Below are positions 5,292 through 61,551 of a stretch of DNA of 64,000 bases, piece after piece (within the stretch, counting starts at the first letter, position 1; each line of letters begins with the position of its first letter). The position numbers and the translations under genes were made by a program. Location: assembly GCA_030531555.1 (NCBI GenBank), contig JAUNNI010000003.1:20130-84129 (forward strand), read 5' to 3'. The stretch is from Eubacteriales bacterium. Lineage in GTDB: Bacteria; Bacillota; Clostridia; Lachnospirales; Lachnospiraceae. The notes beneath the pieces were generated by a model. It ran no database searches, was not told the DNA's origin, and worked only from the letters and a program-made list of their open reading frames with translations.

Positions 5292-6860
5292 ATGAAAGAA
5301 AAGAATCAGCAGGGAGAGACAATCCTTCATCCAATTCCTCCCTTATTTGACAAGGAATCCAGAATACTGATTTTAGGAAGCTTCCCCTCTGTAAAATCCA
5401 GGGAGGCAGCCTTTTTTTACGGACATCCACAAAATCGTTTTTGGAAATTGATGTCCAGACTTTTGTCGGAGGAATTTCCAGAAACAACAGAGGAAAGGGC
5501 AGCGCTCATGCATCGCAATCACATTGCAGTGTGGGATACCATTGCCAGCTGCAATATTGTGGGTTCTTCCGACAGTAGTATCAAAGACGTGGTTCCCAAC
5601 GACCTTTCCATAATTTTAGAGAATGCTCCTATTGAAAAAATCTACTGTAATGGAGCCAAATCTCATGAATATTATAAAAAATATATAGAGAAAGAAACTG
5701 GAATGCAGGCAATCAAGCTTCCTTCCACCAGCCCTGCCAATGCTGCCTGTAACATGGATAAATTAATTGATCAATGGAAGCAGATTTTGATTCCTTTGAA
5801 AATCGCGCCAGCAGGTATCGGAGATGTCCTGGTTCGCTGGTATGATTATAATGCCAGAATTCTTCCGTGGAGAAGCGATCCAACTCCATATCATGTATGG
5901 ATTTCAGAAATTATGCTGCAGCAGACCAGAGTGGAGGCAGTGAAAAAATATTATGAGCGTTGGATGGATGCCTTGCCTGATATTGCAAGCCTTGCAGCCA
6001 TTGATGACGATGAATTAATGAAACTGTGGGAAGGACTGGGATATTATAGCAGAGTAAGAAATATAAAAGCCGCAGCCATTACCGTCATGGAAGAGTATGG
6101 TGGCCAGCTTCCAGCGAATTACGATCAGCTACTTTCTCTGAAAGGAATCGGAGAGTACACGGCAGGTGCGATTTCCTCCATCGCATTTCATTTGCCAAAA
6201 GCAGCGGTGGATGGTAATGTTTTGCGAGTTTTTTCCAGAATTCTTGCAGAGGAAGGTAAGATTAACCAATCGAAGGTGAAAAAGACCTTGGAAAAAGAAG
6301 TTCTCCGTGTTATGCCAAAAGAACGTCCCGGGGACTTTAATCAGGCACTTATGGATCTTGGAGCAACCATTTGCCTGCCAAATGGAAAGCCGCTTTGTGA
6401 ACAGTGTCCATGGGAATCTGTCTGTCAGGCCCACAAAATGGACAGGGAGTGCGATTTTCCAATGAAAGAACAGAAAAAGCCGAGAAGAATTGAGGAAAAA
6501 GGGGTTTTCCTTATTGAATGGGAAGGAAAGATTTATCTTCATAAACGGCCAAAAAAAGGTCTTCTTGCGCAACTTTGGGAGTTTCCTAATTTTGAGGGAG
6601 CCTACACTTTAGAAAAAGCCAGAGAGAAGATTGAATCCTGGAATGGTGCCGATTATAAGATCCACTCCATGGGAGAAGGCAAGCACATATTCTCTCATGT
6701 TGAATGGCATATGACAGGTTATTATATCCGCCTCCTCGTTTTGTCTAAAAAAATGAAAAATTTGATCGAGGAAAAAGAGTGGATTCTGGTTTCCAAAGAA
6801 GAGGTAGAGAATACTTATGCGATTCCATCTGCGTTTGAGGCTTTTCGAAAACGTATATAG
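5292..6860 (+). CDS. mutY: fusion: N-terminal UDG-superfamily DNA-deoxyinosine (hypoxanthine) glycosylase + A/G-specific adenine glycosylase MutY
   Basis: N-terminal part: ILILGSFPSVKSR, FYGHPQNRFW, LPSTSPANA. MutY part: LPWR, SEIMLQQT, HhH motif LKGIGEYTAGAI, VDGNV, 4Fe-4S motif CLPNGKPLCEQCPWESVC, NUDIX-like tail. Confidence 0.9.
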   Translation: MKEKNQQGETILHPIPPLFDKESRILILGSFPSVKSREAAFFYGHPQNRFWKLMSRLLSEEFPETTEERAALMHRNHIAVWDTIASCNIVGSSDSSIKDVVPNDLSIILENAPIEKIYCNGAKSHEYYKKYIEKETGMQAIKLPSTSPANAACNMDKLIDQWKQILIPLKIAPAGIGDVLVRWYDYNARILPWRSDPTPYHVWISEIMLQQTRVEAVKKYYERWMDALPDIASLAAIDDDELMKLWEGLGYYSRVRNIKAAAITVMEEYGGQLPANYDQLLSLKGIGEYTAGAISSIAFHLPKAAVDGNVLRVFSRILAEEGKINQSKVKKTLEKEVLRVMPKERPGDFNQALMDLGATICLPNGKPLCEQCPWESVCQAHKMDRECDFPMKEQKKPRRIEEKGVFLIEWEGKIYLHKRPKKGLLAQLWEFPNFEGAYTLEKAREKIESWNGADYKIHSMGEGKHIFSHVEWHMTGYYIRLLVLSKKMKNLIEEKEWILVSKEEVENTYAIPSAFEAFRKRI

Positions 6861-6968: not shown

Positions 6969-7023
6969 CAAAGTCTTTGTAAAAAAGTTTGAAGAATGAA
7001 TTTGACATAGTGAGGAGAAAAAC

Positions 7024-7803
7024 ATGAAATTTCGTCCATGTATAGATATTCATAATGGAAAAGTAAAACAAATCGTAGGAGGAAGCCTGCTGGATGAAGG
7101 GGACTTCGCGGAGGATAACTTCGTTTCGGAAAAAGATGGGGATTTTTATGCGAACCTGTACAAAAAAGCAGGGTTGATTGGCGGACATATTATTCTGCTG
7201 AACCCTGCAGGCAGTGAATATTATGAAGAAGATGTACGTCAGGCCTGTCTTGCTCTAAAGGCTTATCCTGGTGGGCTTCAGATTGGCGGTGGCATGAATG
7301 CTGACAATGCTGCCTTTTTCTTAGAACAGGGAGCAACCCATATTATCGTTACTTCCTATGTTTTTAAAAATGGAGCCATTAACTGGGAAAACCTTAAAAA
7401 GATGGTAAATGTAACAGGAAAAGAACATTTGGTACTTGATTTAAGCTGCAGAAAAAAAGACGGTCGTTACTATATTGTAACAGACCGTTGGCAGAAATTT
7501 ACGGATGTGCTTTTAAATCGTGAAACCTTGGAACAGTTATCCAGCTACTGCAGTGAGTTTTTAATTCATGCGGTGGACGTAGAAGGGAAGGCCAGCGGAA
7601 TCGAAGAAGAAATCGCAGCACTTCTTGGTGACTGGGATGGCATTCCTGTAACTTATGCCGGAGGCGTTGGATCCTTTGAGGATCTTCGTAAATTAAAAGA
7701 ATTGGGCAAAGGAAAGGTGGATGTGACCATTGGCAGTGCGTTAGATCTTTTTGGGGGAAACATGGCCTTTGAACAGGTGCTTTCTGTGATTGGAGAGCAG
7801 TAG
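7024..7803 (+). CDS. hisA: ProFAR isomerase, His6/eukaryote-like type
   Basis: N-terminus MKFRPCIDIHNGKVKQIVGGSL, plus LQIGGG, HAVDVEG and TIGSALD. Confidence 0.9.
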   Translation: MKFRPCIDIHNGKVKQIVGGSLLDEGDFAEDNFVSEKDGDFYANLYKKAGLIGGHIILLNPAGSEYYEEDVRQACLALKAYPGGLQIGGGMNADNAAFFLEQGATHIIVTSYVFKNGAINWENLKKMVNVTGKEHLVLDLSCRKKDGRYYIVTDRWQKFTDVLLNRETLEQLSSYCSEFLIHAVDVEGKASGIEEEIAALLGDWDGIPVTYAGGVGSFEDLRKLKELGKGKVDVTIGSALDLFGGNMAFEQVLSVIGEQ

Positions 7804-7892
7804 ATATTCTGAGAATGATTTGATTAAAATATATCCAAATAATAAGATATATAAACAATAAGACATATCCGAACAAGAGGAATTGTTGAACT

Positions 7893-8114
7893 GTGGGTAT
7901 ATACGTATAATTTGAATGCAGATTACCAAAGATTAAAGGTTTTTTGGGGGCGATTGGGTAAAAGAAAAGTGCAAAAAGTCAATATACCAACAAAAATAAG
8001 ATTTTCTAGAAAATCGTTGGTATATACAGATTTTTTGCACATTATTTTACCCAAAAACTAAGAATTGATTGAAATATTGGGTAAGAGAGAATAAATGGAG
8101 TAAATTATACCCAA
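7893..8114. repeat. array of eight 8-bp motifs (KT[GT]GGTAW-like) in alternating orientation, ~30.5-bp spacing
   Basis: Sites start at 7893(F), 7923(R), 7954(F), 7984(R), 8016(F), 8047(R), 8077(F), 8107(R). Confidence 0.75.
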
Positions 8115-8134
8115 AGTATAGGATTATCCATTTT

Positions 8135-9271
8135 TTAGCTCATCTTTGATAGAGCGATTGTAATTCCTTTAAACTTTGCTTTATCCACCAGGATTTTTCC
8201 TTTTCCAGATGCCAGATAGGAACTGGCGGTGGATACTGATAAAACACCGGTTTGTTTTGCCACAAAGTCGGATTGTTTGATTCCAAGCTCATTAATATCA
8301 AGAGCCTCGATTTCTTCGGTAGGAATTACTTTTAATGGAACATGTAAATGGTCAGCGGTAGTCAGAATTCCTGGCTCATCTGCCTTTAAAGGAATGGTGC
8401 TGATGGCATTTAAGGAAAGAGGGCTTAAGCCTTCTTTTTTTAATGTTTCAAGAAGTGCTTCTTCGATGGGAGCGGCCTCCATATTTCGTTTGCAGCCAAT
8501 CCCGGCAAAGATGGTTCTTGGACGCAGGTAGAGAACCGGGGCACCAAGTCTGCTTTCATCTTCTTCACTTAAAGTATAGCCTTCATCAATAATGACCGTA
8601 GGCATTCCATCAACTACAGATGTTGCCTCTGCCGTAGGCATTCCATCGACGACAGATGTTGCCCCTGCCATAGACAGAGCGTCTTTTGAAAGAAATTCCA
8701 ATGGGTCAGAATGATTGAACTCCTCTGAAAATCCTTCTACTGTTTTAAGGATAAACTTTCCGTCTTTCTTTCCATTTTCCAGTTCATCATCCTGAAGATC
8801 GGTGACAACTCGCACAGCTTTCCCTTCTAATAGAGCGCCGCTAATATGTTTGAGCTTTCCTATATTTTCAATGGCCATGTTTCTCTTTTTGGCAAAAGTG
8901 TCAAATGACAGTTCTCCGGCAACGTCTGTGGCGGTTGTAATAACGGCCTCACCTCCAGACAGGAATGCCATTTCGCGGGCAAGATCGTTGGCACCTCCCA
9001 AATGACCGGATAAAAGAGAGATGGCATGCTGACCTTTCTGATCTAAAACAACAACGCCTGGATCACTGGTTTTATGAACAATCAATGGTGCCAAAATGCG
9101 GACAACGATTCCTGTGGCCATAATGCAGACAAGATAGTCATAGCTTTGGAAGCCTTTTTGTAGATTCTCTTTAAAATTTTCTTTTCCATATAAATCTCCG
9201 GGATGGCCGGCAGCTAATTTTTCTGCTAAAGATTTGCCTTCCGGTGTCAGATAATAATATGCTGTGCTCAA
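8135..9271 (-). CDS. cbiG: cobalt-precorrin-5A hydrolase CbiG
   Basis: The protein reads on the reverse complement (the track's '+' is wrong). Motifs CIMATGIVVR, DPGVVVLD, ISLLSGHLGGAN, GIGCKR. Likely TTG start at 9271 behind an AGAGAGG SD. Confidence 0.92.
   Translation of the reverse strand: MSTAYYYLTPEGKSLAEKLAAGHPGDLYGKENFKENLQKGFQSYDYLVCIMATGIVVRILAPLIVHKTSDPGVVVLDQKGQHAISLLSGHLGGANDLAREMAFLSGGEAVITTATDVAGELSFDTFAKKRNMAIENIGKLKHISGALLEGKAVRVVTDLQDDELENGKKDGKFILKTVEGFSEEFNHSDPLEFLSKDALSMAGATSVVDGMPTAEATSVVDGMPTVIIDEGYTLSEEDESRLGAPVLYLRPRTIFAGIGCKRNMEAAPIEEALLETLKKEGLSPLSLNAISTIPLKADEPGILTTADHLHVPLKVIPTEEIEALDINELGIKQSDFVAKQTGVLSVSTASSYLASGKGKILVDKAKFKGITIALSKMS
8596..8667 (-). repeat. 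in-frame 36-bp tandem duplication inside cbiG
   Basis: CCGTAGGCATTCCATCAACTACAGATGTTGCCTCTG / CCGTAGGCATTCCATCGACGACAGATGTTGCCCCTG (3 differences), encoding A(G/E)ATSVVDGMPT twice. Confidence 0.95.
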
Positions 9272-9638
9272 AATAAAACCTCTCTTTTTTCTCTTTGCAT
9301 ACATAGACACTATGTATTCTCGCTGATATTTTACCATGGAAAAGGTGAAATCGCAAAAAAGACAAAAAAACCATAATTATACGATAAAATGGTAAAAAAT
9401 TGACATTGATAAAATTTCAATTGTAATATTCGACACATTTACTAGTATAAATACTATTTTGTTATGACAAAAACAATATCTTATACCCTCTATTAGGACA
9501 ATATTGTACAGATAATTGGAAAACTACCTTTAGTGAAAATATCTTTCGTGCTATAATACAAACTATATATTGGAAAATGTCGTAAATTTTCATTTTTTGT
9601 AAAAATAGAAAGAAAAAATACAATGGAGGTACATTTTT

Positions 9639-10910
9639 ATGAATATCGCAAAATCCGAAGAACTCTATAAAGTTGCCCTGGATCTGATGCCAGGTGGAGT
9701 AAACTCTCCAGTTCGTGCATTTGGTTCTGTTGGAAGAAATCCATTATTTATTGATCATGCCAAAGGTTCCCGTATCTTTGATGTGGATGGCAATGAATTT
9801 ATTGACTATGTATGTTCCTGGGGGCCTGGTATTCTTGGTCATGCTCATCCAGAAGTTATTGAGGCAGTACAGAAAGCTTGTGTGGATGGTCTTACTTTTG
9901 GTGCACCAACCAGAAAAGAAAGTGAACTTGCAGCTATGATTCGTGATTGTGTTCCTTCCATGGAACTGATGCGTATGGTTAGCTCTGGTACAGAAGCAAC
10001 CATGAGTGCAATCCGCGCAGCAAGAGGTTATACAAAGAGAGATAAAATTATCAAATTCAAAGGATGCTACCATGGTCATTCCGATGGCCTTTTGGTGCAG
10101 GCAGGCTCCGCCGCTTTGACACAGTCTGTTCCAGATAGTGCGGGAGTTCCAGCATCTTTTGCACAGCAGACATTGGTTGCTTTATACAATGACAAGGATT
10201 CTGTTCGCGAATTATTTGAAAATAACAAAGACCAGATTGCAGCTCTCATCGTTGAGCCTGTTGCAGCTAATATGGGTGTTGTTTTACCAGAAGAAGGTTT
10301 CTTGGAATTTTTACGTGAGATCACAGCAGAAAACGGTACCGTTTTGATTTTCGATGAAGTTATCACAGGCTTCCGTCTCAGTGTTGGTGGTGCTCAGGCA
10401 TGGTATAATATCGATCCGGACCTCACCACATTTGGTAAGATTGTCGGTGGTGGTATGCCAATGGCAGTTTATGGTGGCAAGAAAGAAATCATGAAAAATG
10501 TGGCACCAACCGGTAAAGTTTACCAGGCTGGAACACTCTCTGGTAATCCAATCGCAACCACAGCCGGAATCAAAACTTTACAGCTTCTCATGGATCATCC
10601 GGAAGTTTATACAAAGATTGAAGCAAATGCGAAAAAATTAGCAGAGGCATTCAAGATGCGTGCCCAGCAGAAGAACATTCCACTTCATGTAAATCAGGTT
10701 GGATCTTTACTTTGTGCATTCCACACAGCAGAAAATGTAAAAGACTACACTGGTGCATTATCTTCCGATACAGCTGCTTATGCAAGCTATTTTGGTGACA
10801 TGCTTGAATCCGGCATCTACGTAGCACCATCCCAGTTTGAGGCCATGTTCGTATCCGGAGCACATTCTGACGAAGATATTGCAAGAACCATCGAAGCAAT
10901 TTTGAAATAA
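9639..10910 (+). CDS. hemL: glutamate-1-semialdehyde 2,1-aminomutase
   Basis: PGGVNSPVRAF, SSGTEATMSAIR, GCYHGH, FDEVITGFR, TFGKIVGGG (PLP lysine). Confidence 0.97.
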   Translation: MNIAKSEELYKVALDLMPGGVNSPVRAFGSVGRNPLFIDHAKGSRIFDVDGNEFIDYVCSWGPGILGHAHPEVIEAVQKACVDGLTFGAPTRKESELAAMIRDCVPSMELMRMVSSGTEATMSAIRAARGYTKRDKIIKFKGCYHGHSDGLLVQAGSAALTQSVPDSAGVPASFAQQTLVALYNDKDSVRELFENNKDQIAALIVEPVAANMGVVLPEEGFLEFLREITAENGTVLIFDEVITGFRLSVGGAQAWYNIDPDLTTFGKIVGGGMPMAVYGGKKEIMKNVAPTGKVYQAGTLSGNPIATTAGIKTLQLLMDHPEVYTKIEANAKKLAEAFKMRAQQKNIPLHVNQVGSLLCAFHTAENVKDYTGALSSDTAAYASYFGDMLESGIYVAPSQFEAMFVSGAHSDEDIARTIEAILK

Positions 10911-13757: not shown

Positions 13758-16178
13758 ATGAGTAATTCCATTAAGATTGGCACAAGAAAAAGCCAGCTTG
13801 CTTTGATTCAGACAGAGATTGTAAAGAATCGAATTCTGCAGGCCTTTCCTGAAAAAACAGTGGAAATCGTAAAGATTGACACAAAGGGTGATCAGATTTT
13901 AGATAAATCCCTGACATCTTTTGGCGGTAAGGGTGTATTTACTGCAGAATTAGAAGCAGAGCTCTTATCCGGACAGATTGATATTGCTGTTCACAGTGCG
14001 AAGGATATGCCGATGGAGTTTCCGGAAGGATTAGGAATTGGGGCAGCTTTAGAACGTGCGGACATTCGTGATTGTTTTGTTACAACAAATGGCATGAAAT
14101 TAGCGGATCTTGCACCAGGCAGTATTGTTGGAACCAGCTCCCTTCGCCGTGAGCTTCTCATTAAAGAAATCAATCCATATGTTCAGATTCGTATGCTTCG
14201 TGGCAATGTGCAGACAAGACTTCGCAAATTAAAAGAAGGTCAGTATGACGGTATCATTCTTGCAGCAGCAGGAATTGAACGTCTGGAATACACAGAGATG
14301 GAAGGAGTTCATTTCGAATACATGGATCCGGAACAGTTCCTTCCAGCGGCAGGACAGGGAATTCTTGCGGTGGAATGTCGCGAGGATGACCAGGAGATGG
14401 CAAATGTTTTGGCAGCCATCAATTGTGAAGAAGCAGCATGTCTTCTCGAGGCAGAGCGTAATTTCTTAAAGACCATCGGTGGCAGCTGTAATGCTCCAGC
14501 AGCAGGCTTCTGTAAAGAAAACGATGGCAGCTTCACCATGCATGCCATGTATGTAAAAGATGGTGTTCATGGCAAAAAAGCTGTGAAATCAGTGGAGATT
14601 CCAGAAGGAGCCAGCGCAGAAGAGAAAAAAGCTTTGGCAGGTGACCTTGGAAAATCCATTGCCAAAGAAGTAAATAAAGGCATGGTTTATTTGGTAGGTG
14701 CCGGTCCTGGAGATGAAGATTTATTTACCAGAAAGGGACTTCGTCTCATCCAGCAGGCGGACGTTGTGGTTTATGACAATTTAGCTTCCAGCTCCCTTTT
14801 AAATGAAGTGAGAGACGATGCAGAACTGATCTATGCCGGCAAACGTTCTTCCCACCACCATCTGAAACAGTATGAAACCAATCAGCTCTTAGTTGAGCTT
14901 GCTTTAGAAGGCAAAAATGTAGTTCGTTTAAAAGGTGGAGATCCTTATATTTTCGGCCGTGGCGGCGAAGAAGGACAGGAACTTCGCGAAGCAGGTGTAG
15001 ATTTTGAAGTGGTTCCAGGAATTTCTTCCTCCTACTCCGTACCAGCTTATTGCGGTATTCCGGTAACACACCGTGATTTTGCTTCCTCCTTCCATGTGAT
15101 CACAGGCCATGAAGGCAACCATAAAAACGGAGCTACTGTATTAAATTATGAAACACTGGCTAAAGAAGAAGGTACTTTAATCTTCCTCATGGGCCTTAAA
15201 AACCTTCCAAATATCGTGGCTTCCCTCATGGCAAATGGAAAAGATCCAGAAACACCAGTGGGCGTTCTTCAGGAAGGAACCACTGCAAGACAGCGTGTGG
15301 CAACCGGAAGATTATGCGACATTGTGGAAATTGTAAAAAGAGAAGGCATCCAGACACCAGCCATCACCGTAGTTGGTGATGTGGTAGGTCTTAGAGATGT
15401 GCTTAACTGGTATGGTATGAAGCCATTATCCGGACAGCGTGTCATTGTAACTGGCAGCCGTTCCATGGTGGACCGTTTATCCCCAATTTTAAAAGAGGAG
15501 GGTGCGGAAGCCATTTCCTTCAGCCTCATTCGTACGGAGGCTTTAGAAAGTCCAGAATTTACCAAAGCCATTGAAGAGATTGATACTTATACCTGGGCTG
15601 TGTTCACCAGTGCCAACGGAGTGGATTGTTTCTTTGACAAAATGAAAGAACTCCGCAAAGATATCCGAAGCTTCGCCAATGTGAAATTCGCAGTGATCGG
15701 CGATGGCACAAGAAAGGCTTTGGAAGAGCACGGTATTTTCAGCGACTTTATTCCAACGGCGTATTCTTCCAAAGATATGGCAGAAAGCATGATCCCACTT
15801 CTTAAGAAAGAGGACCGCGTGCTTCTCCTCCGTGCGGAAGAGGCCAATGAAGTCCTTCCAAATGCTTTGGGAGAAGCTGGCATTGACCATACAACCATTT
15901 CCTTATATCACACGGTATATGATATGAGAAAAGCAGAAGAATTGGGACGCCTTGTGAAGTCTGCCGACTATATTACATTTGCAAGTTCCTCTGCAGTGAA
16001 GGCATTTGTGGAAATGGTGGATGACCTTGACAGTGTATGCGGAAAATACATTAGTATCGGTCCGGTTACCACAAAAACAGCAGAAAAGTCTGGCCTTACC
16101 GTGGCAAAGACTGCAATTTCCTACACAGCAAAAGGAATCGTGGACGTCATCCGTCAGGATGTGGAAGAGAATCGATAA
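13758..16178 (+). CDS. hemC-cobA-hemD: trifunctional fusion: hydroxymethylbilane synthase + uroporphyrinogen-III C-methyltransferase + uroporphyrinogen-III synthase
   Basis: HemC: IGTRKSQLA, AVHSAKD, GTSSLRR, RGNVQTR, GGSC. CobA: LVGAGPGD, RLKGGDPYIFGRGGEE, IPVTHR. HemD: VFTSANGV, IGDGT, TFASSSAV, SIGPVT. One uninterrupted ORF. Confidence 0.93.
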   Translation: MSNSIKIGTRKSQLALIQTEIVKNRILQAFPEKTVEIVKIDTKGDQILDKSLTSFGGKGVFTAELEAELLSGQIDIAVHSAKDMPMEFPEGLGIGAALERADIRDCFVTTNGMKLADLAPGSIVGTSSLRRELLIKEINPYVQIRMLRGNVQTRLRKLKEGQYDGIILAAAGIERLEYTEMEGVHFEYMDPEQFLPAAGQGILAVECREDDQEMANVLAAINCEEAACLLEAERNFLKTIGGSCNAPAAGFCKENDGSFTMHAMYVKDGVHGKKAVKSVEIPEGASAEEKKALAGDLGKSIAKEVNKGMVYLVGAGPGDEDLFTRKGLRLIQQADVVVYDNLASSSLLNEVRDDAELIYAGKRSSHHHLKQYETNQLLVELALEGKNVVRLKGGDPYIFGRGGEEGQELREAGVDFEVVPGISSSYSVPAYCGIPVTHRDFASSFHVITGHEGNHKNGATVLNYETLAKEEGTLIFLMGLKNLPNIVASLMANGKDPETPVGVLQEGTTARQRVATGRLCDIVEIVKREGIQTPAITVVGDVVGLRDVLNWYGMKPLSGQRVIVTGSRSMVDRLSPILKEEGAEAISFSLIRTEALESPEFTKAIEEIDTYTWAVFTSANGVDCFFDKMKELRKDIRSFANVKFAVIGDGTRKALEEHGIFSDFIPTAYSSKDMAESMIPLLKKEDRVLLLRAEEANEVLPNALGEAGIDHTTISLYHTVYDMRKAEELGRLVKSADYITFASSSAVKAFVEMVDDLDSVCGKYISIGPVTTKTAEKSGLTVAKTAISYTAKGIVDVIRQDVEENR

Positions 16179-26938: not shown

Positions 26939-29020
26939 ATGGCAAAAGCAATTATGGTGCAGGGTACCATGTCAAATTCCGGTAAAACATTTGTTACTGC
27001 CGGATTATGCCGTGTATTTAAGCAGGACGGCTACCGCGTTGCACCTTTTAAATCCCAGAATATGGCATTGAATTCCTATATCACAAAGGAAGGTCTCGAG
27101 ATTGGACGTGCCCAGGCCATGCAGGCTGAGGCAGCGATGATTGAGCCAACCCATTGGATGAATCCAATCCTGTTGAAACCAACTTCCCACATGGGATCCC
27201 AGGTCATCGTAAATGGTGAAGTTTATGATAATTTAAGTGCACAGGAATATTACAAGATGAAAGATAATCTGGCACCAGCAGTAAAAGCAGCTTTTGATCA
27301 TCTTGCGTCTGAAAATGATATCATCGTCATCGAAGGTGCCGGCTCCCCAGCGGAGATCAATCTGGCAGAAAATGATATTGTAAATATGGGCATGGCAAAA
27401 ATGGCCGATGCTCCGGTTATTCTTGTGGCTGATATTGACCGTGGTGGTGTTTTTGCTTCCGCTTATGGAACGGTAAAGCTTCTTCCTCAGGAAGACCAGG
27501 ACCGTTTCTGTGGTATTGTCATCAACAAATTCCGTGGAGATGTGGAGATTTTAAGACCAGGTCTTAAGATGTTAGAAGATCTGACAGAGAAACCGGTTCT
27601 CGGTGTTCTTCCACTGGAAAAAATCGATGTGGATGATGAGGATAGCTTATCCGATCGTCTCAATCAGAAAACTATCACAGAAGGAATTGATGTGGCAGTA
27701 ATCCGCCTTCCACACATTTCCAATTTCACGGATTTTAGTGTATTTGAATTGATTAATGGCGTATCTTTACGCTATGTTACCGATAAAAAAGAATTGGGCA
27801 CACCGGACCTTATCCTTCTTCCTGGTACCAAAAATACCATGGCAGATATGGAATGGCTTATTGAGAGCGGTTTGGAAGGTGCCATCATCCGCCAGGCAAG
27901 AAATACAAGAGTTATCGGTATTTGCGGTGGCTTCCAGCTTCTTGGAAAAGAACTCCACGATCCAGATGGCGTAGAGCACGGTGGAGACATGCGAGGGCTT
28001 GGCATTCTTGATACTTCCACTGTATTCCAGGGAGGAAAAACCAGAACCCGTATCCATGGAACCATCGATGAGAACCGTAATATTTACGGCATGGAAAACC
28101 GCGATGTTGAAGGCTATGAGATTCATATGGGTCTTACCACGAACCTTGGTTCTGCCATTCCGATGATTACTTTAGAAGATGGTCGTGTGGATGCTTACAT
28201 GACAGAAGATGGAAGAATCTGGGGAAGCTACCTCCATGGAATCTTTGATAACGAAGATCTGGTATTCGCCTTAGTTCACGATATTATGCGTGAAAAGGGT
28301 ATCGATCCAGAAGCAAATGAGCTGAGTATCGCAGAATACAAAGAGATTCAGTATAATAAATTGGCAGACTTAATCCGCAATAATCTGGATATGGATCAGA
28401 TTTATTCCATTCTTTTTGGTGGACAAAAGGAAGAAAATGTGGATAAAGTCGAAGAAAAATCCGCAAAATGTGGATGCGCAAACCTTCCGGATGACACCTC
28501 CGGAGAAGGTTTGCTTCATCTTTATTGCGGGGATGGCAAAGGAAAAACCACTTGCTGTATGGGATTATTAACCCGCGCAGCCGGCAGTGGTAAAAAGGTT
28601 CTTCTCCATCAATTCTTAAAGGATAACGAATCCAGCGAGAGAAAGCTGGTGGAAAAATTCCCTGGAGTAAAAGTAATCCCAAGCTTAGCCCTTGATAAAT
28701 GGACCTTCCAGATGAATGAGGAAGAGCTTAGGGATCTTCGCGAAAAGAATGATAAGATTTTAGAGGATATCGTTGCACAGGCAGCTTCCTTTGACATGAT
28801 CGTCATGGATGAAGCCCTCTATGCCATTGATAAAAATCTTTTATCCGAAGATAAAGTGATTGAATTTATTGAGAAAAAACCAAGACACCTTGAAGTAGTA
28901 TTAAGTGGAAGAAATCCTTCCGAACGTATGCAGGAGCATGCAGATTATATCTCTGAAATCTGCAAGAGAAAGCATCCATTTGACAGGGGCGTTTCCTCCC
29001 GATTAGGAATTGAAAAATAA
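26939..29020 (+). CDS. cbiP-cobO: cobyric acid synthase fused to a C-terminal CobO/BtuR-type corrinoid adenosyltransferase
   Basis: CbiP: QGTMSNSGK, FKSQNM, EGAGSPAEINL, GICGGFQ, GYEIH, SYLHG. Last ~190 aa: HLYCGDGKGKTT, QFLK, MDEA, EVVLSGRNP, ADYISE, KHPF, GIE. Confidence 0.92.
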   Translation: MAKAIMVQGTMSNSGKTFVTAGLCRVFKQDGYRVAPFKSQNMALNSYITKEGLEIGRAQAMQAEAAMIEPTHWMNPILLKPTSHMGSQVIVNGEVYDNLSAQEYYKMKDNLAPAVKAAFDHLASENDIIVIEGAGSPAEINLAENDIVNMGMAKMADAPVILVADIDRGGVFASAYGTVKLLPQEDQDRFCGIVINKFRGDVEILRPGLKMLEDLTEKPVLGVLPLEKIDVDDEDSLSDRLNQKTITEGIDVAVIRLPHISNFTDFSVFELINGVSLRYVTDKKELGTPDLILLPGTKNTMADMEWLIESGLEGAIIRQARNTRVIGICGGFQLLGKELHDPDGVEHGGDMRGLGILDTSTVFQGGKTRTRIHGTIDENRNIYGMENRDVEGYEIHMGLTTNLGSAIPMITLEDGRVDAYMTEDGRIWGSYLHGIFDNEDLVFALVHDIMREKGIDPEANELSIAEYKEIQYNKLADLIRNNLDMDQIYSILFGGQKEENVDKVEEKSAKCGCANLPDDTSGEGLLHLYCGDGKGKTTCCMGLLTRAAGSGKKVLLHQFLKDNESSERKLVEKFPGVKVIPSLALDKWTFQMNEEELRDLREKNDKILEDIVAQAASFDMIVMDEALYAIDKNLLSEDKVIEFIEKKPRHLEVVLSGRNPSERMQEHADYISEICKRKHPFDRGVSSRLGIEK

Positions 29021-51848: not shown

Positions 51849-51869
51849 ATTACAGGAGAGAGAATAAAA

Positions 51870-52778
51870 ATGAGTATTGGAACATTACAAAAACTCATTG
51901 AAAAATATCTGTTTTGGTTGTCCCTTCCATCCATTGGATTAACGGACATCTTAGAGATCATAATTATTAGTGTCATCGTATATCAGGTGTTACGATGGGT
52001 AAAATTTACACGTGCATGGACTCTTTTTAAGGGTATTCTGGTACTGTTGGTTTTTGCTCTGATTGCCGCTGTATTCCAGCTTAACACCATCACCTGGCTG
52101 TTATCAAACTCCATTGGTGTCGGTGTTACCGCAGCAATCATCATTTTTCAGCCTGAACTTCGTAGAGCATTAGAACAGCTGGGAAGAGGAAGCTTTATCA
52201 GCAACATCATTTCTTTCTCCTCCTCAGATTCCAAAGAGGATAATTCGAAGATTACTGAAAAGACGATCAACGAGATTGTAAAAGCTTCCGTTGATATGGG
52301 AAAAGTAAAGACGGGTGCTTTGATTGTTATTGAGCGTTCCGTGGCACTTGGTGAATATGTGCGAACTGGTATCCGCATTGATGGAATTGTTACCAGCCAG
52401 CTTTTGATCAATATATTTGAACATAATACTCCACTTCATGATGGAGCGGTAATTATTCGTGGAAATCGACTGGTTTCAGCAACCTGTTATCTCCCACTTT
52501 CTGAAAATATGAATATAGGAAAAGAACTGGGAACGCGTCATCGTGCTGCAATCGGAATCAGCGAAGTTTCAGATAGCCTGGTTGTAATTGTGTCGGAAGA
52601 AACCGGTGCAATCAGCATAGCTCACGAAGGAAAACTTAGAAAAACTCTCACCAAAGAAACATTGTTAAAAGAATTAGAAATTCTAAAAGAGGATGATGTT
52701 TCCATTGGCGGAGATGTATTTAAAAAATGGAAAGGTCTGCTTTGGAATGATAAACGTACAAAAGATAAAGGACAATGA
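51870..52778 (+). CDS. cdaA: diadenylate cyclase CdaA
   Basis: Three TM helices, FQPELRRALE, TPLHDGAV (DGA), GTRHRAA (RHR), SEETG. Confidence 0.96.
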   Translation: MSIGTLQKLIEKYLFWLSLPSIGLTDILEIIIISVIVYQVLRWVKFTRAWTLFKGILVLLVFALIAAVFQLNTITWLLSNSIGVGVTAAIIIFQPELRRALEQLGRGSFISNIISFSSSDSKEDNSKITEKTINEIVKASVDMGKVKTGALIVIERSVALGEYVRTGIRIDGIVTSQLLINIFEHNTPLHDGAVIIRGNRLVSATCYLPLSENMNIGKELGTRHRAAIGISEVSDSLVVIVSEETGAISIAHEGKLRKTLTKETLLKELEILKEDDVSIGGDVFKKWKGLLWNDKRTKDKGQ

Positions 52779-56586: not shown

Positions 56587-56627
56587 TTCACTCTTACGTG
56601 AATGTTATCTAACATAGAATAATCATT

Positions 56628-56658
56628 CCCCGGAAACTTCGGTTTCCGGGGTTTTTTT
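56628..56658 (+). terminator. intrinsic terminator after glpK
   Basis: CCCCGGAAAC-TTCG-GTTTCCGGGG followed by T7. Confidence 0.92.
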
Positions 56659-57038
56659 ATGTCATAGAATTTTAGCAAAAGTTTCATAAAATCTTATATG
56701 TGGCTTTTTGCATACTAATTTGGGTCAGATGTGTGAAACTGAAGTACACATCTTATAACAAAGTTTATTATTGACTAATTTTAGACTTATTCGTTATACT
56801 TTTATTCAGTTGGGATTCCATTCCACAAGAATAAGTACAAACAAGAATATACACGGTATAGAAAGAGGAGCCAAATCATCATCTGGAATAAGATGGAAGA
56901 GGCCCCTTTTCTTACGTTTTGGGGATGTTTGCCTTATGAAACTGAAGTTGTATTTTTACAACTCTAGCAAGGAATGTGAAATCCGAGAGAAAGATCGCAG
57001 GATCAAGAAATAAGTGAAAAGGATGGAGGAGGAGTATA

Positions 57039-61355: not shown

Positions 61356-61363
61356 GTAAAAAT

Positions 61364-61551
61364 CTGACCCGAAATGCCGCATCCTGCAATTTTGAGTCCT
61401 AGCCAAGCTAGGTGGGTAACCGCAATCACGTTCCTGACTTCCACTGGAAGATAAAAATGAGGCCTGTCATTCCGGTGATTATTATGTTTCCCGAGTTCAA
61501 AAATGTAGGTTCAAAATAACAAGATTATATCGAACACCCCAGGCTATTTAT
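61364..61551 (-). ncRNA. ssrS: 6S RNA
   Basis: Minus strand reads CCTGGGGTGTTCG...TTGAACC...TGAACTCGGGA...GCGGTTACCCACCT...CAAAA...GCGGCATTTCGGG, resembling clostridial 6S RNA. About 185 nt, with its own TTGTCA-N17-TATATT promoter and a terminator. Confidence 0.82.

What the first reader, a model, noticed from the sequence alone, without database searches (positions are those of the whole stretch)
7893..8114. Phased array of eight alternating-orientation motifs at ~30.5-bp spacing between convergent hisA and cbiG
Seen: GTGGGTAT (7893), TTACCAAA (7923), TTGGGTAA (7954), ATACCAAC (7984), GTTGGTAT (8016), TTACCCAA (8047), TTGGGTAA (8077), ATACCCAA (8107). Spacings are 30, 31, 30, 32, 31, 30, 30 bp and the orientation alternates strictly. 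The pairs 7984/8016 and 8047/8077 are perfect inverted repeats of different variants, so the variation looks paired. The 7984/8016 pair encloses a perfect 16-bp palindrome, GATTTTCTAGAAAATC (8000-8015). A promoter-like TTGTTG (7883)-N17-TATAAT (7906) overlaps the first site and points toward the 3' end of cbiG. Known: spacing of about three helical turns is typical of DNA-wrapping oligomeric regulators such as the Lrp/AsnC family. Inference: this could be a wrapped nucleoprotein site controlling an antisense or small RNA against cbiG, a multi-hairpin sRNA, a chromosome-organising or recombination site, or an orphaned operator of a lost gene. Such an ordered array between two gene 3' ends is unexpected.
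Basis: partly seen in the sequence, partly recalled or inferred. Interest (0 to 1): 0.7.

Follow-up and report, generated by a model that had tools for sequence, protein, structure and literature searches.

The report
Phased TGGGTA half-site arrays in Lachnospiraceae
The eight alternating motifs are real and belong to an apparently undescribed family of intergenic arrays, found at many places in gut Clostridia genomes, whose fixed spacing and helical register suggest a docking platform for a DNA-bending protein that is still unknown.

Summary
The eight motifs sit at the stated coordinates, with spacings 30,31,30,32,31,30,30 and strict alternation. They are 8 of only 24 KTKGGTAW matches in 64 kb; shuffles never chain more than 3.

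The array is better described as four ~38-bp units "E" (T[G/T]GGTAW-N22-WTACC[C/A]A). It is not unique. Pattern scans found about 29 such arrays of 3-12 half-sites in at least 11 Lachnospiraceae/Eubacteriales genome assemblies, with 8 loci in one. All are intergenic and lie beside unrelated genes. None occurs in 2.9 million viral contigs.

- Only the hexamer TGGGTA(W) is conserved.
- Spacing within a unit is 30-31 bp.
- Distances between units are 22/31/41/53/72..., in a ~10.2-bp register.
- Spacer AT content oscillates with a 10-bp period.
- Orthologous arrays keep the hexamers (33/36 columns) while the spacers drift (46/123).

Best reading: a double-stranded DNA docking array for an oligomeric, sequence-specific protein that bends or wraps DNA. 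The binder is unknown; the half-site resembles GntR-family boxes. The Lrp assignment, the antisense promoter and the sRNA reading are not supported. Relatives lack the array between hisA and cbiG; two of them carry an ordinary hairpin terminator just after hisA.

The parts
7893..8114 (.). Whole array: eight half-sites T[G/T]GGTA(W) in strictly alternating orientation, making four E units
7893..7930 (.). Unit E1: GTGGGTAT (7893, +) - N22 - TTACCAAA (7923, -)
7954..7991 (.). Unit E2: TTGGGTAA (7954, +) - N22 - ATACCAAC (7984, -); 33/39 identical to the reverse complement of E3
8016..8054 (.). Unit E3: GTTGGTAT (8016, +) - N23 - TTACCCAA (8047, -). A sister strain lacks one base at 8031, which gives the canonical 30-bp spacing
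8077..8114 (.). Unit E4: TTGGGTAA (8077, +) - N22 - ATACCCAA (8107, -). A sister strain has T8082C inside the first hexamer
7954..8054 (.). Inverted duplication E2-spacer-E3. It can form a ~100-nt hairpin or cruciform on either strand (DNA fold -26.6 kcal/mol, z = -8.0)
8000..8015 (.). Perfect 16-bp palindrome at the centre of the inverted duplication. It is a by-product of the duplication and differs at three positions in a sister strain
7811..7876 (.). Degenerate left flank. 7811-7848 is 76% identical to 8087-8124. ATATCCAA (7830) and ATATCCGA (7864) look like decayed minus-type half-sites; 7864 is in phase (29 bp before 7893). TRF reports a 16-bp period with an 18-nt consensus unit, TAAGATATATCCAAACAA, x3
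7883..7911 (+). The -35 matches only 3/6, the consensus scan did not call it, and there is no transcript evidence
7024..7803 (+). Flanking gene: HisA-type His_biosynth protein (259 aa), not part of a his operon
8135..9337 (-). Flanking gene: cbiG (cobalt-precorrin-5A hydrolase). The 100%-identical database entry is 378 aa, so the true start is probably internal to this ORF

Best explanation
The array is one member of a dispersed family of intergenic arrays in Lachnospiraceae and related Clostridia.

The elementary unit (E) is an inverted pair of hexamers, TGGGTA(W)-N22-(W)TACCCA. Their centres are 30-31 bp apart, about three helical turns, so both lie on the same face of the helix. Two to six units stand in a row. 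The gaps between them are always a whole number of helical turns.

Inferred mechanism:
- Each unit is bound on double-stranded DNA by a symmetric dimer, or a dimer of dimers. Its two DNA-reading heads are held about 100 Angstrom apart, as in a 'molecular ruler'.
- Neighbouring bound units touch each other on one face of the helix.
- The DNA is bent or wrapped smoothly around the resulting oligomer. In the window this covers about 220 bp and eight half-sites.

The binder is not identified. The half-site resembles the boxes read by GntR-family winged-helix domains, so a GntR/MocR-like or other ruler-type regulator is the leading candidate; this is a weak inference.

In this window no intrinsic terminator was found in the hisA-cbiG spacer, whereas two relatives have a hairpin terminator just after hisA. 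If the array is occupied, it would most plausibly act as a protein roadblock or topological barrier between the two converging transcription units. That last step is speculation.

Shown: the family exists, its geometry, the helical register, the AT phasing, and selective conservation of the hexamers. Inferred: protein binding and wrapping. Guessed: the identity of the binder and the physiological role.
For: 1. The array is real and not chance.

2. The same architecture recurs.
- A genome-contig scan gave 23 true arrays in 11 Clostridia genome assemblies (MAGs and draft scaffolds). These include 8 contigs of one Lachnospiraceae MAG (STD2_184), and arrays of 12, 10 and 8 half-sites.
- The metagenome scan added 6 more.

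3. Only TGGGTA plus W is informative; the rest of the unit carries almost no information. Spacers from different loci of one genome are unrelated: 0.35 identity against 0.28 expected from composition.

4. Geometry.
- Plus-to-minus spacing is 30 (50 cases) or 31 (23 cases).
- Minus-to-plus spacing is 31-32, or 22, 40-42, 53, 62, 72.
- The pattern holds for pairs that the search pattern did not constrain.
- The 16 inter-unit distances outside 30-32 are in register with 31 at a period of 10.2 bp (R = 0.84, mean phase 0.0).

5. Across 50 non-redundant units, the AT content of non-hexamer positions peaks at 0, about 11, about 19.5 and about 30.5 bp from the unit dyad. It has troughs at about 6.5 and 24.5 bp. 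None of 500 shuffles reached the 10-bp Fourier amplitude. This is the signature of DNA bent toward a protein surface.

6. Purifying selection on the hexamers at orthologous loci.
- comEC-array-blaI locus in three assemblies, two of them nearly identical: 33/36 hexamer columns are identical against 46/123 spacer columns.
- asnB locus in two genera: 7 of 8 aligned hexamers are identical while the spacers drift.

7. The arrays are not phage-borne: 0 hits in 2.9 million viral contigs.

8. There are precedents for the geometry.
- BusR reads two motifs 22 bp apart, three turns, same face (PMC8517857).
- The PurR PurBoxes are 14-bp inverted repeats 16-17 bp apart, with DNA wrapping (PMC8789054).
- MocR operators have 2-4 boxes, some in alternating direction, at whole helical turns (PMC5320631).
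- GntR-family boxes include ATACCA (GabR), TGGTATAW (NanR) and TGGTATT (NagQ) (PMC4494728).
Against: - No binding protein is identified. No gene family recurs next to the arrays, and the window encodes no GntR/MocR protein.
- The neighbouring genes share no function, which is unusual for a transcription-factor regulon.
- Some arrays spread by duplication. Two loci of one genome share unit interiors and a ~50-bp left flank. The window's array is absent from the same spacer in relatives. Both facts fit a selfish repeat as well.
- In a sister strain one hexamer is mutated, and the array as a whole is no more variable in its spacers than in its hexamers. That comparison has too few differences to test anything.
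- All spacing statistics come from loci ascertained with a spacing-restricted pattern. One search shows the unconstrained pairs behave the same.
Confidence: 0.6

Rival explanations
1. A REP/BIME-like selfish or semi-domesticated repeat. Each E unit would be a hairpin-forming palindrome recognised as single-stranded DNA by a dedicated transposase (RAYT-like or other). Arrays would grow by local duplication and spread to new intergenic sites, with any protein binding secondary.
For: - The arrays are extragenic, multi-copy and regularly spaced in alternating orientation, as BIMEs are described (PMC2817692).
- The array was gained in the window's lineage.
- There are tandem amplifications of near-identical 61-bp units (L099).
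- Two paralogous arrays in one genome share a flank.
- Assemblies break inside the array.
Against: - Only 6-8 bp per arm are conserved, and the 22-nt 'loop' has a fixed length but a free sequence.
- A hairpin gives no reason for a 10.2-bp register between units or for 10-bp AT phasing.
- The unit ends carry no GTAG or CGTC tag (PMC3733652).
- Spacers and interiors are unrelated between loci of one genome.
- Hexamers are maintained at orthologous loci while the rest drifts. That points to selection in place rather than turnover.
- No transposase gene lies near any array.
Confidence: 0.15
2. An RNA element. The array would be transcribed as the shared 3' region of hisA and cbiG, or from its own promoter. 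It would act as a multi-hairpin stabiliser, a terminator without a U-tract, an RNase III target, or an sRNA antisense to cbiG.
For: - Both strands fold far better than shuffles (z = -6.7).
- There is no intrinsic terminator in the spacer, so read-through from both genes is likely.
- In the comEC-blaI locus the array lies between the stop codon and the terminator.
Against: - The fold signal is equal on both strands and comes from one inverted duplication.
- Within units the two half-sites are not complementary variants in the window (E1 and E2 would pair at only 5 of 8 positions by my hand pairing of the sequences).
- No bacterial Rfam family matches; there is only sub-threshold plant miRNA-precursor noise.
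- In four loci the array lies downstream of the upstream gene's terminator.
- The sequence of the stems is conserved, not their pairing.
- RNA does not explain the 10-bp register or the AT phasing.
Confidence: 0.1
3. A site-specific recombination substrate (res-like accessory sites, a shufflon or inverton) in which a recombinase pairs inverted half-sites.
For: - The half-sites are short and alternate in orientation.
- Adjacent units are inverted copies of each other in the window.
- Copy number varies between orthologous arrays.
Against: - The arrays hold up to 12 half-sites.
- No recombinase gene is nearby.
- No alternative joints appear in the contigs laid on the region.
- No conserved crossover core lies between the half-sites.
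Confidence: 0.07
4. A locally generated duplication with no function: chance half-sites multiplied by tandem and inverted duplication.
For: E2 and E3 are an inverted duplicate, and the left flank shows decayed copies.
Against: - E1 and E4 share only the half-sites with E2/E3.
- The same half-site and geometry recur in about 29 arrays of other genomes with unrelated spacers.
- The hexamers are selectively conserved.
Confidence: 0.03

Closest known systems
Bacterial interspersed mosaic elements (BIMEs), clusters of REP sequences in Enterobacteria and Pseudomonas
   Same: - Both are extragenic and present at many loci per genome.
- The motifs are regularly spaced in alternating orientation.
- Unit number is variable.
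- BIMEs are described as binding sites for host proteins (PMC2817692).
   Different: - REPs are 20-40-bp GC-rich stem-loops with a GTAG or CGTC tag, and are linked to RAYT transposases (PMC3733652).
- Here only a hexamer is conserved and the 22-bp interior is free.
- The units here stand in helical register, the host is a Firmicute, and no transposase is seen.
Multi-box operators of MocR/GabR-type (GntR-family) regulators
   Same: - The boxes are 6-9 bp and resemble TGGTAT/ATACCA.
- They can be direct, inverted or alternating.
- They are separated by whole helical turns (PMC5320631, PMC4494728).
   Different: - MocR operators have 2-4 boxes, occur once or a few times per genome, and normally sit next to the regulator gene.
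- Here there are 4-12 boxes at 8 loci in one genome, and no adjacent regulator.
BusR operator (GntR-type head plus coiled-coil 'molecular ruler')
   Same: Two short motifs lie 22 bp apart, three helical turns in all, on the same face. A +5-bp or -10-bp change abolishes binding (PMC8517857).
   Different: The BusR motif is GAC. It has one or two sites at a single promoter and regulates osmolyte uptake only.
Bacillus subtilis PurR and its PurBoxes
   Same: The boxes are inverted with centres 30-31 bp apart. Several dimers load, the DNA wraps, and the footprint extends (PMC8789054).
   Different: PurBoxes are 14 bp with a CGAA core and lie at promoters of a coherent purine regulon of about 15 sites.
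Lrp/AsnC-family wrapped operators
   Same: The phasing is about 30-32 bp, and multiple sites are wrapped on an octamer or hexadecamer (my own knowledge, not tested here).
   Different: Lrp-family sites are 13-15-bp AT-rich pseudo-palindromes, each bound by one dimer. Here each site is an asymmetric TGGGTA whose orientation alternates.

Membership tests
Lrp/AsnC wrapped operator | Sites phased at about 30-32 bp | tested here: met
   Spacings are 30-32 bp in the window and 30-31 / 31-32 bp across the family.
Lrp/AsnC wrapped operator | Each site is a 13-15-bp AT-rich pseudo-palindrome bound by one dimer | tested here: not met
   The position matrix shows information only in ttTGGGTAw, which is asymmetric, with no palindromic partner within the site. 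Orientation alternates.
REP / BIME | Regularly spaced units in alternating orientation, extragenic, many loci per genome | tested here: met
   Eight contigs of one MAG carry arrays; more than 100 copies per genome was not shown.
REP / BIME | 20-40-bp GC-rich imperfect palindrome carrying a GTAG or CGTC tag | tested here: not met
   Only 6-8-bp arms are conserved, around an unconserved 22-nt interior. The base after GGTA is A or T in 96% of sites, so no GTAG forms. Definition from PMC3733652.
REP / BIME | Cognate RAYT (IS200/IS605-like) transposase in the genome | not testable with these tools
   Only 8-kb pieces of the MAGs were available, and none of the ~70 neighbouring proteins run through Pfam is a transposase.
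MITE | Copies share a conserved interior, terminal inverted repeats and target-site duplications | tested here: not met
   Interiors and spacers of different loci of one genome are at background identity, 0.35 against 0.28. No flanking duplication was noticed by eye; this was not tested formally.
CRISPR array | Identical direct repeats of 24-48 bp separated by unique spacers, usually with cas genes | tested here: not met
   The conserved part is a hexamer whose orientation alternates. Spacers within an array are often related, with a 123-124-bp super-period. No cas-like family appeared among the 54 of 58 window ORFs that were run through Pfam.
MocR/GntR-type multi-box operator | Short boxes of GntR type at whole helical turns, direct, inverted or alternating | tested here: met
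   T[G/T]GGTAW compares with ATACCA, TGGTATAW and TGGTATT. The register was shown. This is a resemblance only.
MocR/GntR-type multi-box operator | Two to four boxes next to the regulator gene, with a coherent small regulon | tested here: not met
   The arrays hold 4-12 boxes. No GntR/MocR gene lies next to any array or in the window, and the neighbouring genes are heterogeneous.
Intrinsic (bidirectional) terminator | GC-rich short hairpin followed by a T-run | tested here: not met
   There are 0 terminator-like sites in 7000-9700 and none in the spacer with my own scan. Relatives have one just after hisA: L004 in the same hisA-cbiG spacer, and L119 on a contig that ends before cbiG.
Known structured RNA family | Match to an Rfam covariance model at gathering score | tested here: not met
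   There are only sub-threshold plant miRNA-precursor hits, 36 bits against a 120-bit threshold, on both strands.

The most novel reading that the evidence does not exclude
Lachnospiraceae and their relatives may possess a previously undescribed, sequence-specific chromatin-like system. A conserved oligomeric protein would assemble on several, possibly many, phased TGGGTA arrays per chromosome. Each assembly would wrap about 120-370 bp. The assemblies could serve as topological or transcriptional barriers between transcription units, or as loading or titration sites. The arrays would be gained, amplified and lost like mobile DNA, yet kept by selection once in place.
Probability: 0.3. Interest if true: 0.85.

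Novelty: new variant of a known kind. Interest (0 to 1): 0.72.

Why it matters
Lachnospiraceae are dominant gut bacteria whose chromosome organisation and global regulation are almost unstudied.

This is a conserved DNA architecture present at multiple loci per genome. It has a clear structural signature: a rigid 30-bp inverted half-site pair, a whole-turn register, and AT phasing. That gives a direct handle for fishing out an unknown DNA-wrapping protein by pull-down or DAP-seq.

It also lets two questions be tested. One is whether bacteria outside the Proteobacteria have BIME-like protein-binding intergenic arrays. The other is whether such arrays can substitute for terminators between convergent genes.

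For annotation, the motif rule (TGGGTAW-N22-WTACCCA repeated in helical register) is specific enough to flag the family automatically.

Tried and rejected
- **tRNA/tmRNA and Rfam.** The gathering scan of the whole window and the E-value scan of 7700-9700 gave nothing relevant.
- **TRF.** It does not call the array as a tandem repeat. It reports only a 16-bp-period repeat in the left flank.
- **Literature search by sequence strings.** TTGGGTAA/TTACCCAA and TGGGTAT/ATACCCA gave only unrelated primer and siRNA hits. A concept search gave nothing.
- **Search for a recurrent neighbouring gene that could be the binder.** I ran all-against-all BLAST of 156 ORFs around 22 arrays, plus Pfam on about 70 of them. 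Only orthologous neighbourhoods and generic ABC ATPases recur.
- **RNA evidence.** No RNA run holds the region; only three DNA-type runs do.
- **CodY box.** The central palindrome ATTTTC-TA-GAAAAT is one base longer than AATTTTCWGAAAATT (consensus from my own knowledge). It is not conserved in the sister strain. Rejected.
- **SigB-type -10 element ((G/T)GGTAWA, from my own knowledge).** There is no -35-like signal at a fixed distance in the position matrix. Rejected.
- **DnaA boxes (TTATCCACA, from my own knowledge).** Two mismatches and the wrong spacing logic. Rejected.
- **Integron attC.** The R'/R'' cores do not fit. Rejected.
- **Shared left flank of the two Horse_feces273 arrays.** It matches no Rfam family and occurs in no other fetched locus.
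- **False positives.**
  - Six metagenome hits were CCATGGGTATAC-type tandem repeats.
  - About 75 genome hits were three-site chance matches in unrelated phyla.

Full report
**1. The observation**

The 331-bp spacer 7804-8134 has 27% G+C, against 40% for the window. It lies between a HisA-type gene (7024-7803, +; PF00977) and cbiG (8135-9337, -; CbiG_N/mid/C).

The centre-to-centre spacings are 30, 31, 30, 32, 31, 30, 30. Aligned in one orientation they give KTKGGTAW, with core T[G/T]GGTA.

- The whole window has 24 matches to this consensus on both strands, and 8 are in these 222 bp.
- Twenty thousand first-order Markov sequences with the spacer's own composition gave a mean of 0.23 matches and a maximum of 4.
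- With one mismatch to TGGGTA allowed, the longest alternating chain with 29-33-bp steps is 8 here and 2 anywhere else in the window. Thirty block-shuffles never exceeded 3.

The palindrome at 8000-8015 and the TTGTTG-N17-TATAAT at 7883-7911 are also there.

**2. Anatomy**

The array is better read as four units "E" of 38-39 bp. Each is an inverted pair of half-sites around 22-23 free bases:

- E1 7893-7930
- E2 7954-7991
- E3 8016-8054
- E4 8077-8114

E2 equals the reverse complement of E3 at 33/39 positions. The other pairs share little beyond the half-sites.

- the "paired" variants 7984/8016;
- the perfect central palindrome;
- the strong folding of both strands (RNA z = -6.65 and -6.77, DNA z = -8.0).

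The left flank (7811-7876) holds decayed copies: 76% identity to 8087-8124, and ATATCCGA at 7864 in phase.

There is no intrinsic terminator in the spacer.

**3. Close and distant relatives of this locus**

- Two other assemblies carry the identical spacer.
- A strain 90-95% identical (run X1) also has the array, and its contigs break inside it. That strain differs at three positions of the palindrome. It also lacks one base at 8031, which turns E3's 31-bp spacing into the canonical 30. One hexamer is changed (T8082C).
- More distant relatives have no array at this locus (HisA 94-84% identical, CbiG 80-70% identical). L004 keeps the same convergent hisA/cbiG arrangement and has a plain GC-hairpin terminator in the spacer. 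L119 also has one just after hisA, but that contig ends before cbiG.

So the array was gained in the window's lineage. No intrinsic terminator is detectable there now.

**4. It is a family**

I scanned one genome for each of 185,579 species with TTGGGTAW-N21-24-WTACCMA-N22-26-TKGGTAW. The scan returned 100 loci.

- About three quarters are three-site chance hits in unrelated phyla.
- Twenty-three loci from 11 Clostridia genome assemblies (MAGs and draft scaffolds) carry chains of 3 to 12 half-sites. These MAGs are Lachnospiraceae, "Eubacteriales", Wujia, CAG:882, UMGS782, and one bin labelled Desulfocucumaceae.
- One MAG, STD2_184, has arrays on eight contigs. Most of them have the layout E-41-E-31-E-41-E.
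- A four-site pattern in JGI/ENA metagenome contigs added six more arrays and six unrelated tandem repeats.
- A three-site pattern found nothing in 2.9 million viral contigs.

All arrays are intergenic. Their flanking genes are co-directional, divergent or convergent in ordinary proportions.

The neighbours have no common function. They include dinB, an OPT transporter, hrcA, blaI-blaR1, aminotransferases, a carbamate-type kinase, nifU, a nucleoside phosphorylase, MatE, rubrerythrin, asnB, ispF, deoC and others. No gene family recurs beside them apart from orthologous neighbourhoods.

**5. What is conserved**

Across 44 non-redundant units, only ttTGGGTAw carries information. Some genomes use TGGGTAA, others TGGGTAT; the window has both, plus three TTGGTA variants.

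Spacers and unit interiors from different loci of one genome are at background identity, 0.35 against 0.28.

At orthologous loci the hexamers are kept while everything else drifts:
- comEC-array-terminator-blaI locus in three assemblies, two of them nearly identical: 33/36 hexamer columns are identical against 46/123 spacer columns.
- asnB 3' end in Wujia and another Lachnospiraceae genus: 7 of 8 aligned hexamers are identical, and one genome has two extra units.

**6. Geometry**

- Plus-to-minus distances are 30 (50 cases) or 31 (23 cases).
- Minus-to-plus distances are 31-32 (44 cases), or 22, 40-42, 53, 62, 72.
- Pairs lying outside the stretches that matched the search pattern show the same values, so this is not an ascertainment artefact.
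- The 16 inter-unit distances outside 30-32 are in phase with 31 at a period of 10.2 bp (resultant 0.84, mean phase 0.0 bp).
- In 50 non-redundant units, the AT content of the free positions peaks at the unit dyad and at about 11, 19.5 and 30.5 bp from it. It has troughs at about 6.5 and 24.5 bp, and the GGG of the hexamer lies at 15 bp. None of 500 within-sequence shuffles reached the 10-bp Fourier amplitude.

The rigid unit, the whole-turn spacing between units and the phased AT/GC pattern are what one expects of double-stranded DNA held on one face and bent toward a protein. A hairpin or an RNA gives no reason for any of them.

**7. Mechanism proposed**

- Each unit is bound by a symmetric dimer, or a dimer of dimers, whose two reading heads are about three turns apart.
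- Bound units contact each other along one face.
- The DNA is bent or wrapped.
- Arrays are open-ended, from two to six units.

Precedents for such geometry:
- BusR reads two motifs 22 bp apart, three turns, same face, and is sensitive to +5 and -10 bp changes (PMC8517857).
- The PurR PurBoxes are 14-bp inverted repeats 16-17 bp apart, with several dimers and wrapping (PMC8789054).
- MocR-type operators have boxes, sometimes alternating, at whole helical turns (PMC5320631).

The half-site resembles boxes read by GntR-family winged-helix domains: ATACCA for GabR, TGGTATAW for NanR, TGGTATT for NagQ (PMC4494728). That makes a GntR/MocR-like or other ruler-type protein the leading but weak candidate. 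No such gene lies next to any array or in the window.

The physiological role is open. Many loci, unrelated neighbours and any type of spacer point to a nucleoid-associated or global factor, or to a barrier or roadblock. They do not point to a pathway regulator. No intrinsic terminator was found in the window's spacer, whereas two relatives have a hairpin terminator just after hisA. A roadblock or topological-barrier role between the two converging genes is therefore my best guess.

**8. Rivals**

The closest known architecture is the BIME, in which regularly spaced REPs in alternating orientation act as extragenic protein-binding sites (PMC2817692).

Some behaviour fits a repeat that spreads:
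- the gain in this lineage;
- near-identical 61-bp units amplified in tandem (L099);
- two arrays of one genome that share unit interiors and a ~50-bp left flank.

However, the defining REP features are not met: a 20-40-bp GC-rich stem-loop, a GTAG/CGTC tag and a RAYT transposase (PMC3733652). Hairpin recognition would not produce the helical register.

RNA readings fail for four reasons:
- the fold is equally good on both strands;
- compensatory variation is lacking;
- no Rfam family matches;
- four arrays lie downstream of the upstream gene's terminator.

A recombination site is unlikely, because arrays reach 12 half-sites and no recombinase is nearby. A meaningless local duplication is excluded by the family.

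**9. Verdict**

The finding is real and more interesting than a single odd spacer. It is one member of an apparently undescribed family of phased half-site arrays in gut Clostridia, and it carries strong sequence signatures of a wrapped nucleoprotein complex.

The Lrp assignment, the antisense promoter, the sRNA reading and the orphan-operator reading are not.

I class it as a new variant of a known kind: a phased multi-operator, BIME-like array. I put about a 0.3 chance on it marking a new chromatin-like system.

The main gaps are the binder's identity and any experimental or transcript data.

Noticed in passing
window 61362-61548 (-): 6S RNA (SsrS) gene: full-length Rfam match, 65.8 bits against a gathering score of 46.4.
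   Followed up: no
window 7825-7876: TRF reports a short tandem repeat just left of the array: period 16, 18-nt consensus unit TAAGATATATCCAAACAA, about 3 copies. It contains ATATCC(A/G)AA motifs that look like decayed half-sites.
   Followed up: partly
window 7804-8134; L004 5081-5308; L119 3781-3849: No intrinsic terminator was found between the convergent hisA-type gene and cbiG in the window. L004 has a GC-hairpin terminator in the same spacer, and L119 has one just after hisA on a contig that ends before cbiG.
   Followed up: partly
L100 270-1136 (-) and 1247-1415: In Lachnospiraceae MAG STD2_184, the 67%-identical ortholog of the window's HisA-type gene also has an array next to it, but on its 5' side. 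This may be coincidence; my rough estimate of the chance is a few per cent.
   Followed up: partly
window 5292-6860 (+): A 522-aa protein combines a uracil-DNA-glycosylase-superfamily domain with a MutY-like HhH-GPD/NUDIX_4 module. It is conserved upstream of hisA in relatives.
   Followed up: no
window 8135-31187: This is a large hem/cbi/cob cluster. cbiG is the only minus-strand gene before 59.6 kb; every other called ORF in that stretch is on the plus strand. The cluster includes fusion genes: HemC-methylase-HemD (13758-16178) and CobQ-CobO (26939-29020). No cobalamin riboswitch was detected in the 9338-9638 divergent spacer, even at E <= 1.
   Followed up: no
L045 227-267 and L039 5746-5787: The two arrays of MAG Horse_feces273 share a ~50-bp left flank, GAGACGGTCTTAGCATATATT...CCCTAGTGCGTTTT, and two alternating types of unit interior. 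The flank matches no Rfam family and occurs in no other fetched locus.
   Followed up: partly
L109-L111, L116-L118: Metagenome contigs made of long CCATGGGTATAC-like tandem repeats matched the four-site pattern by accident. They are unrelated to the arrays.
   Followed up: no
window 51849-52692 and 56587-57038: These two long stretches (844 and 452 bp) have no ORF of 90 aa or more. I did not examine them.
   Followed up: no
L070 6400-6560, L072, L112: The blaI-blaR1 upstream region is almost identical in three assemblies. It contains repeated TACA/TGTA-type operator-like sequences and a terminator between the array and blaI.
   Followed up: no
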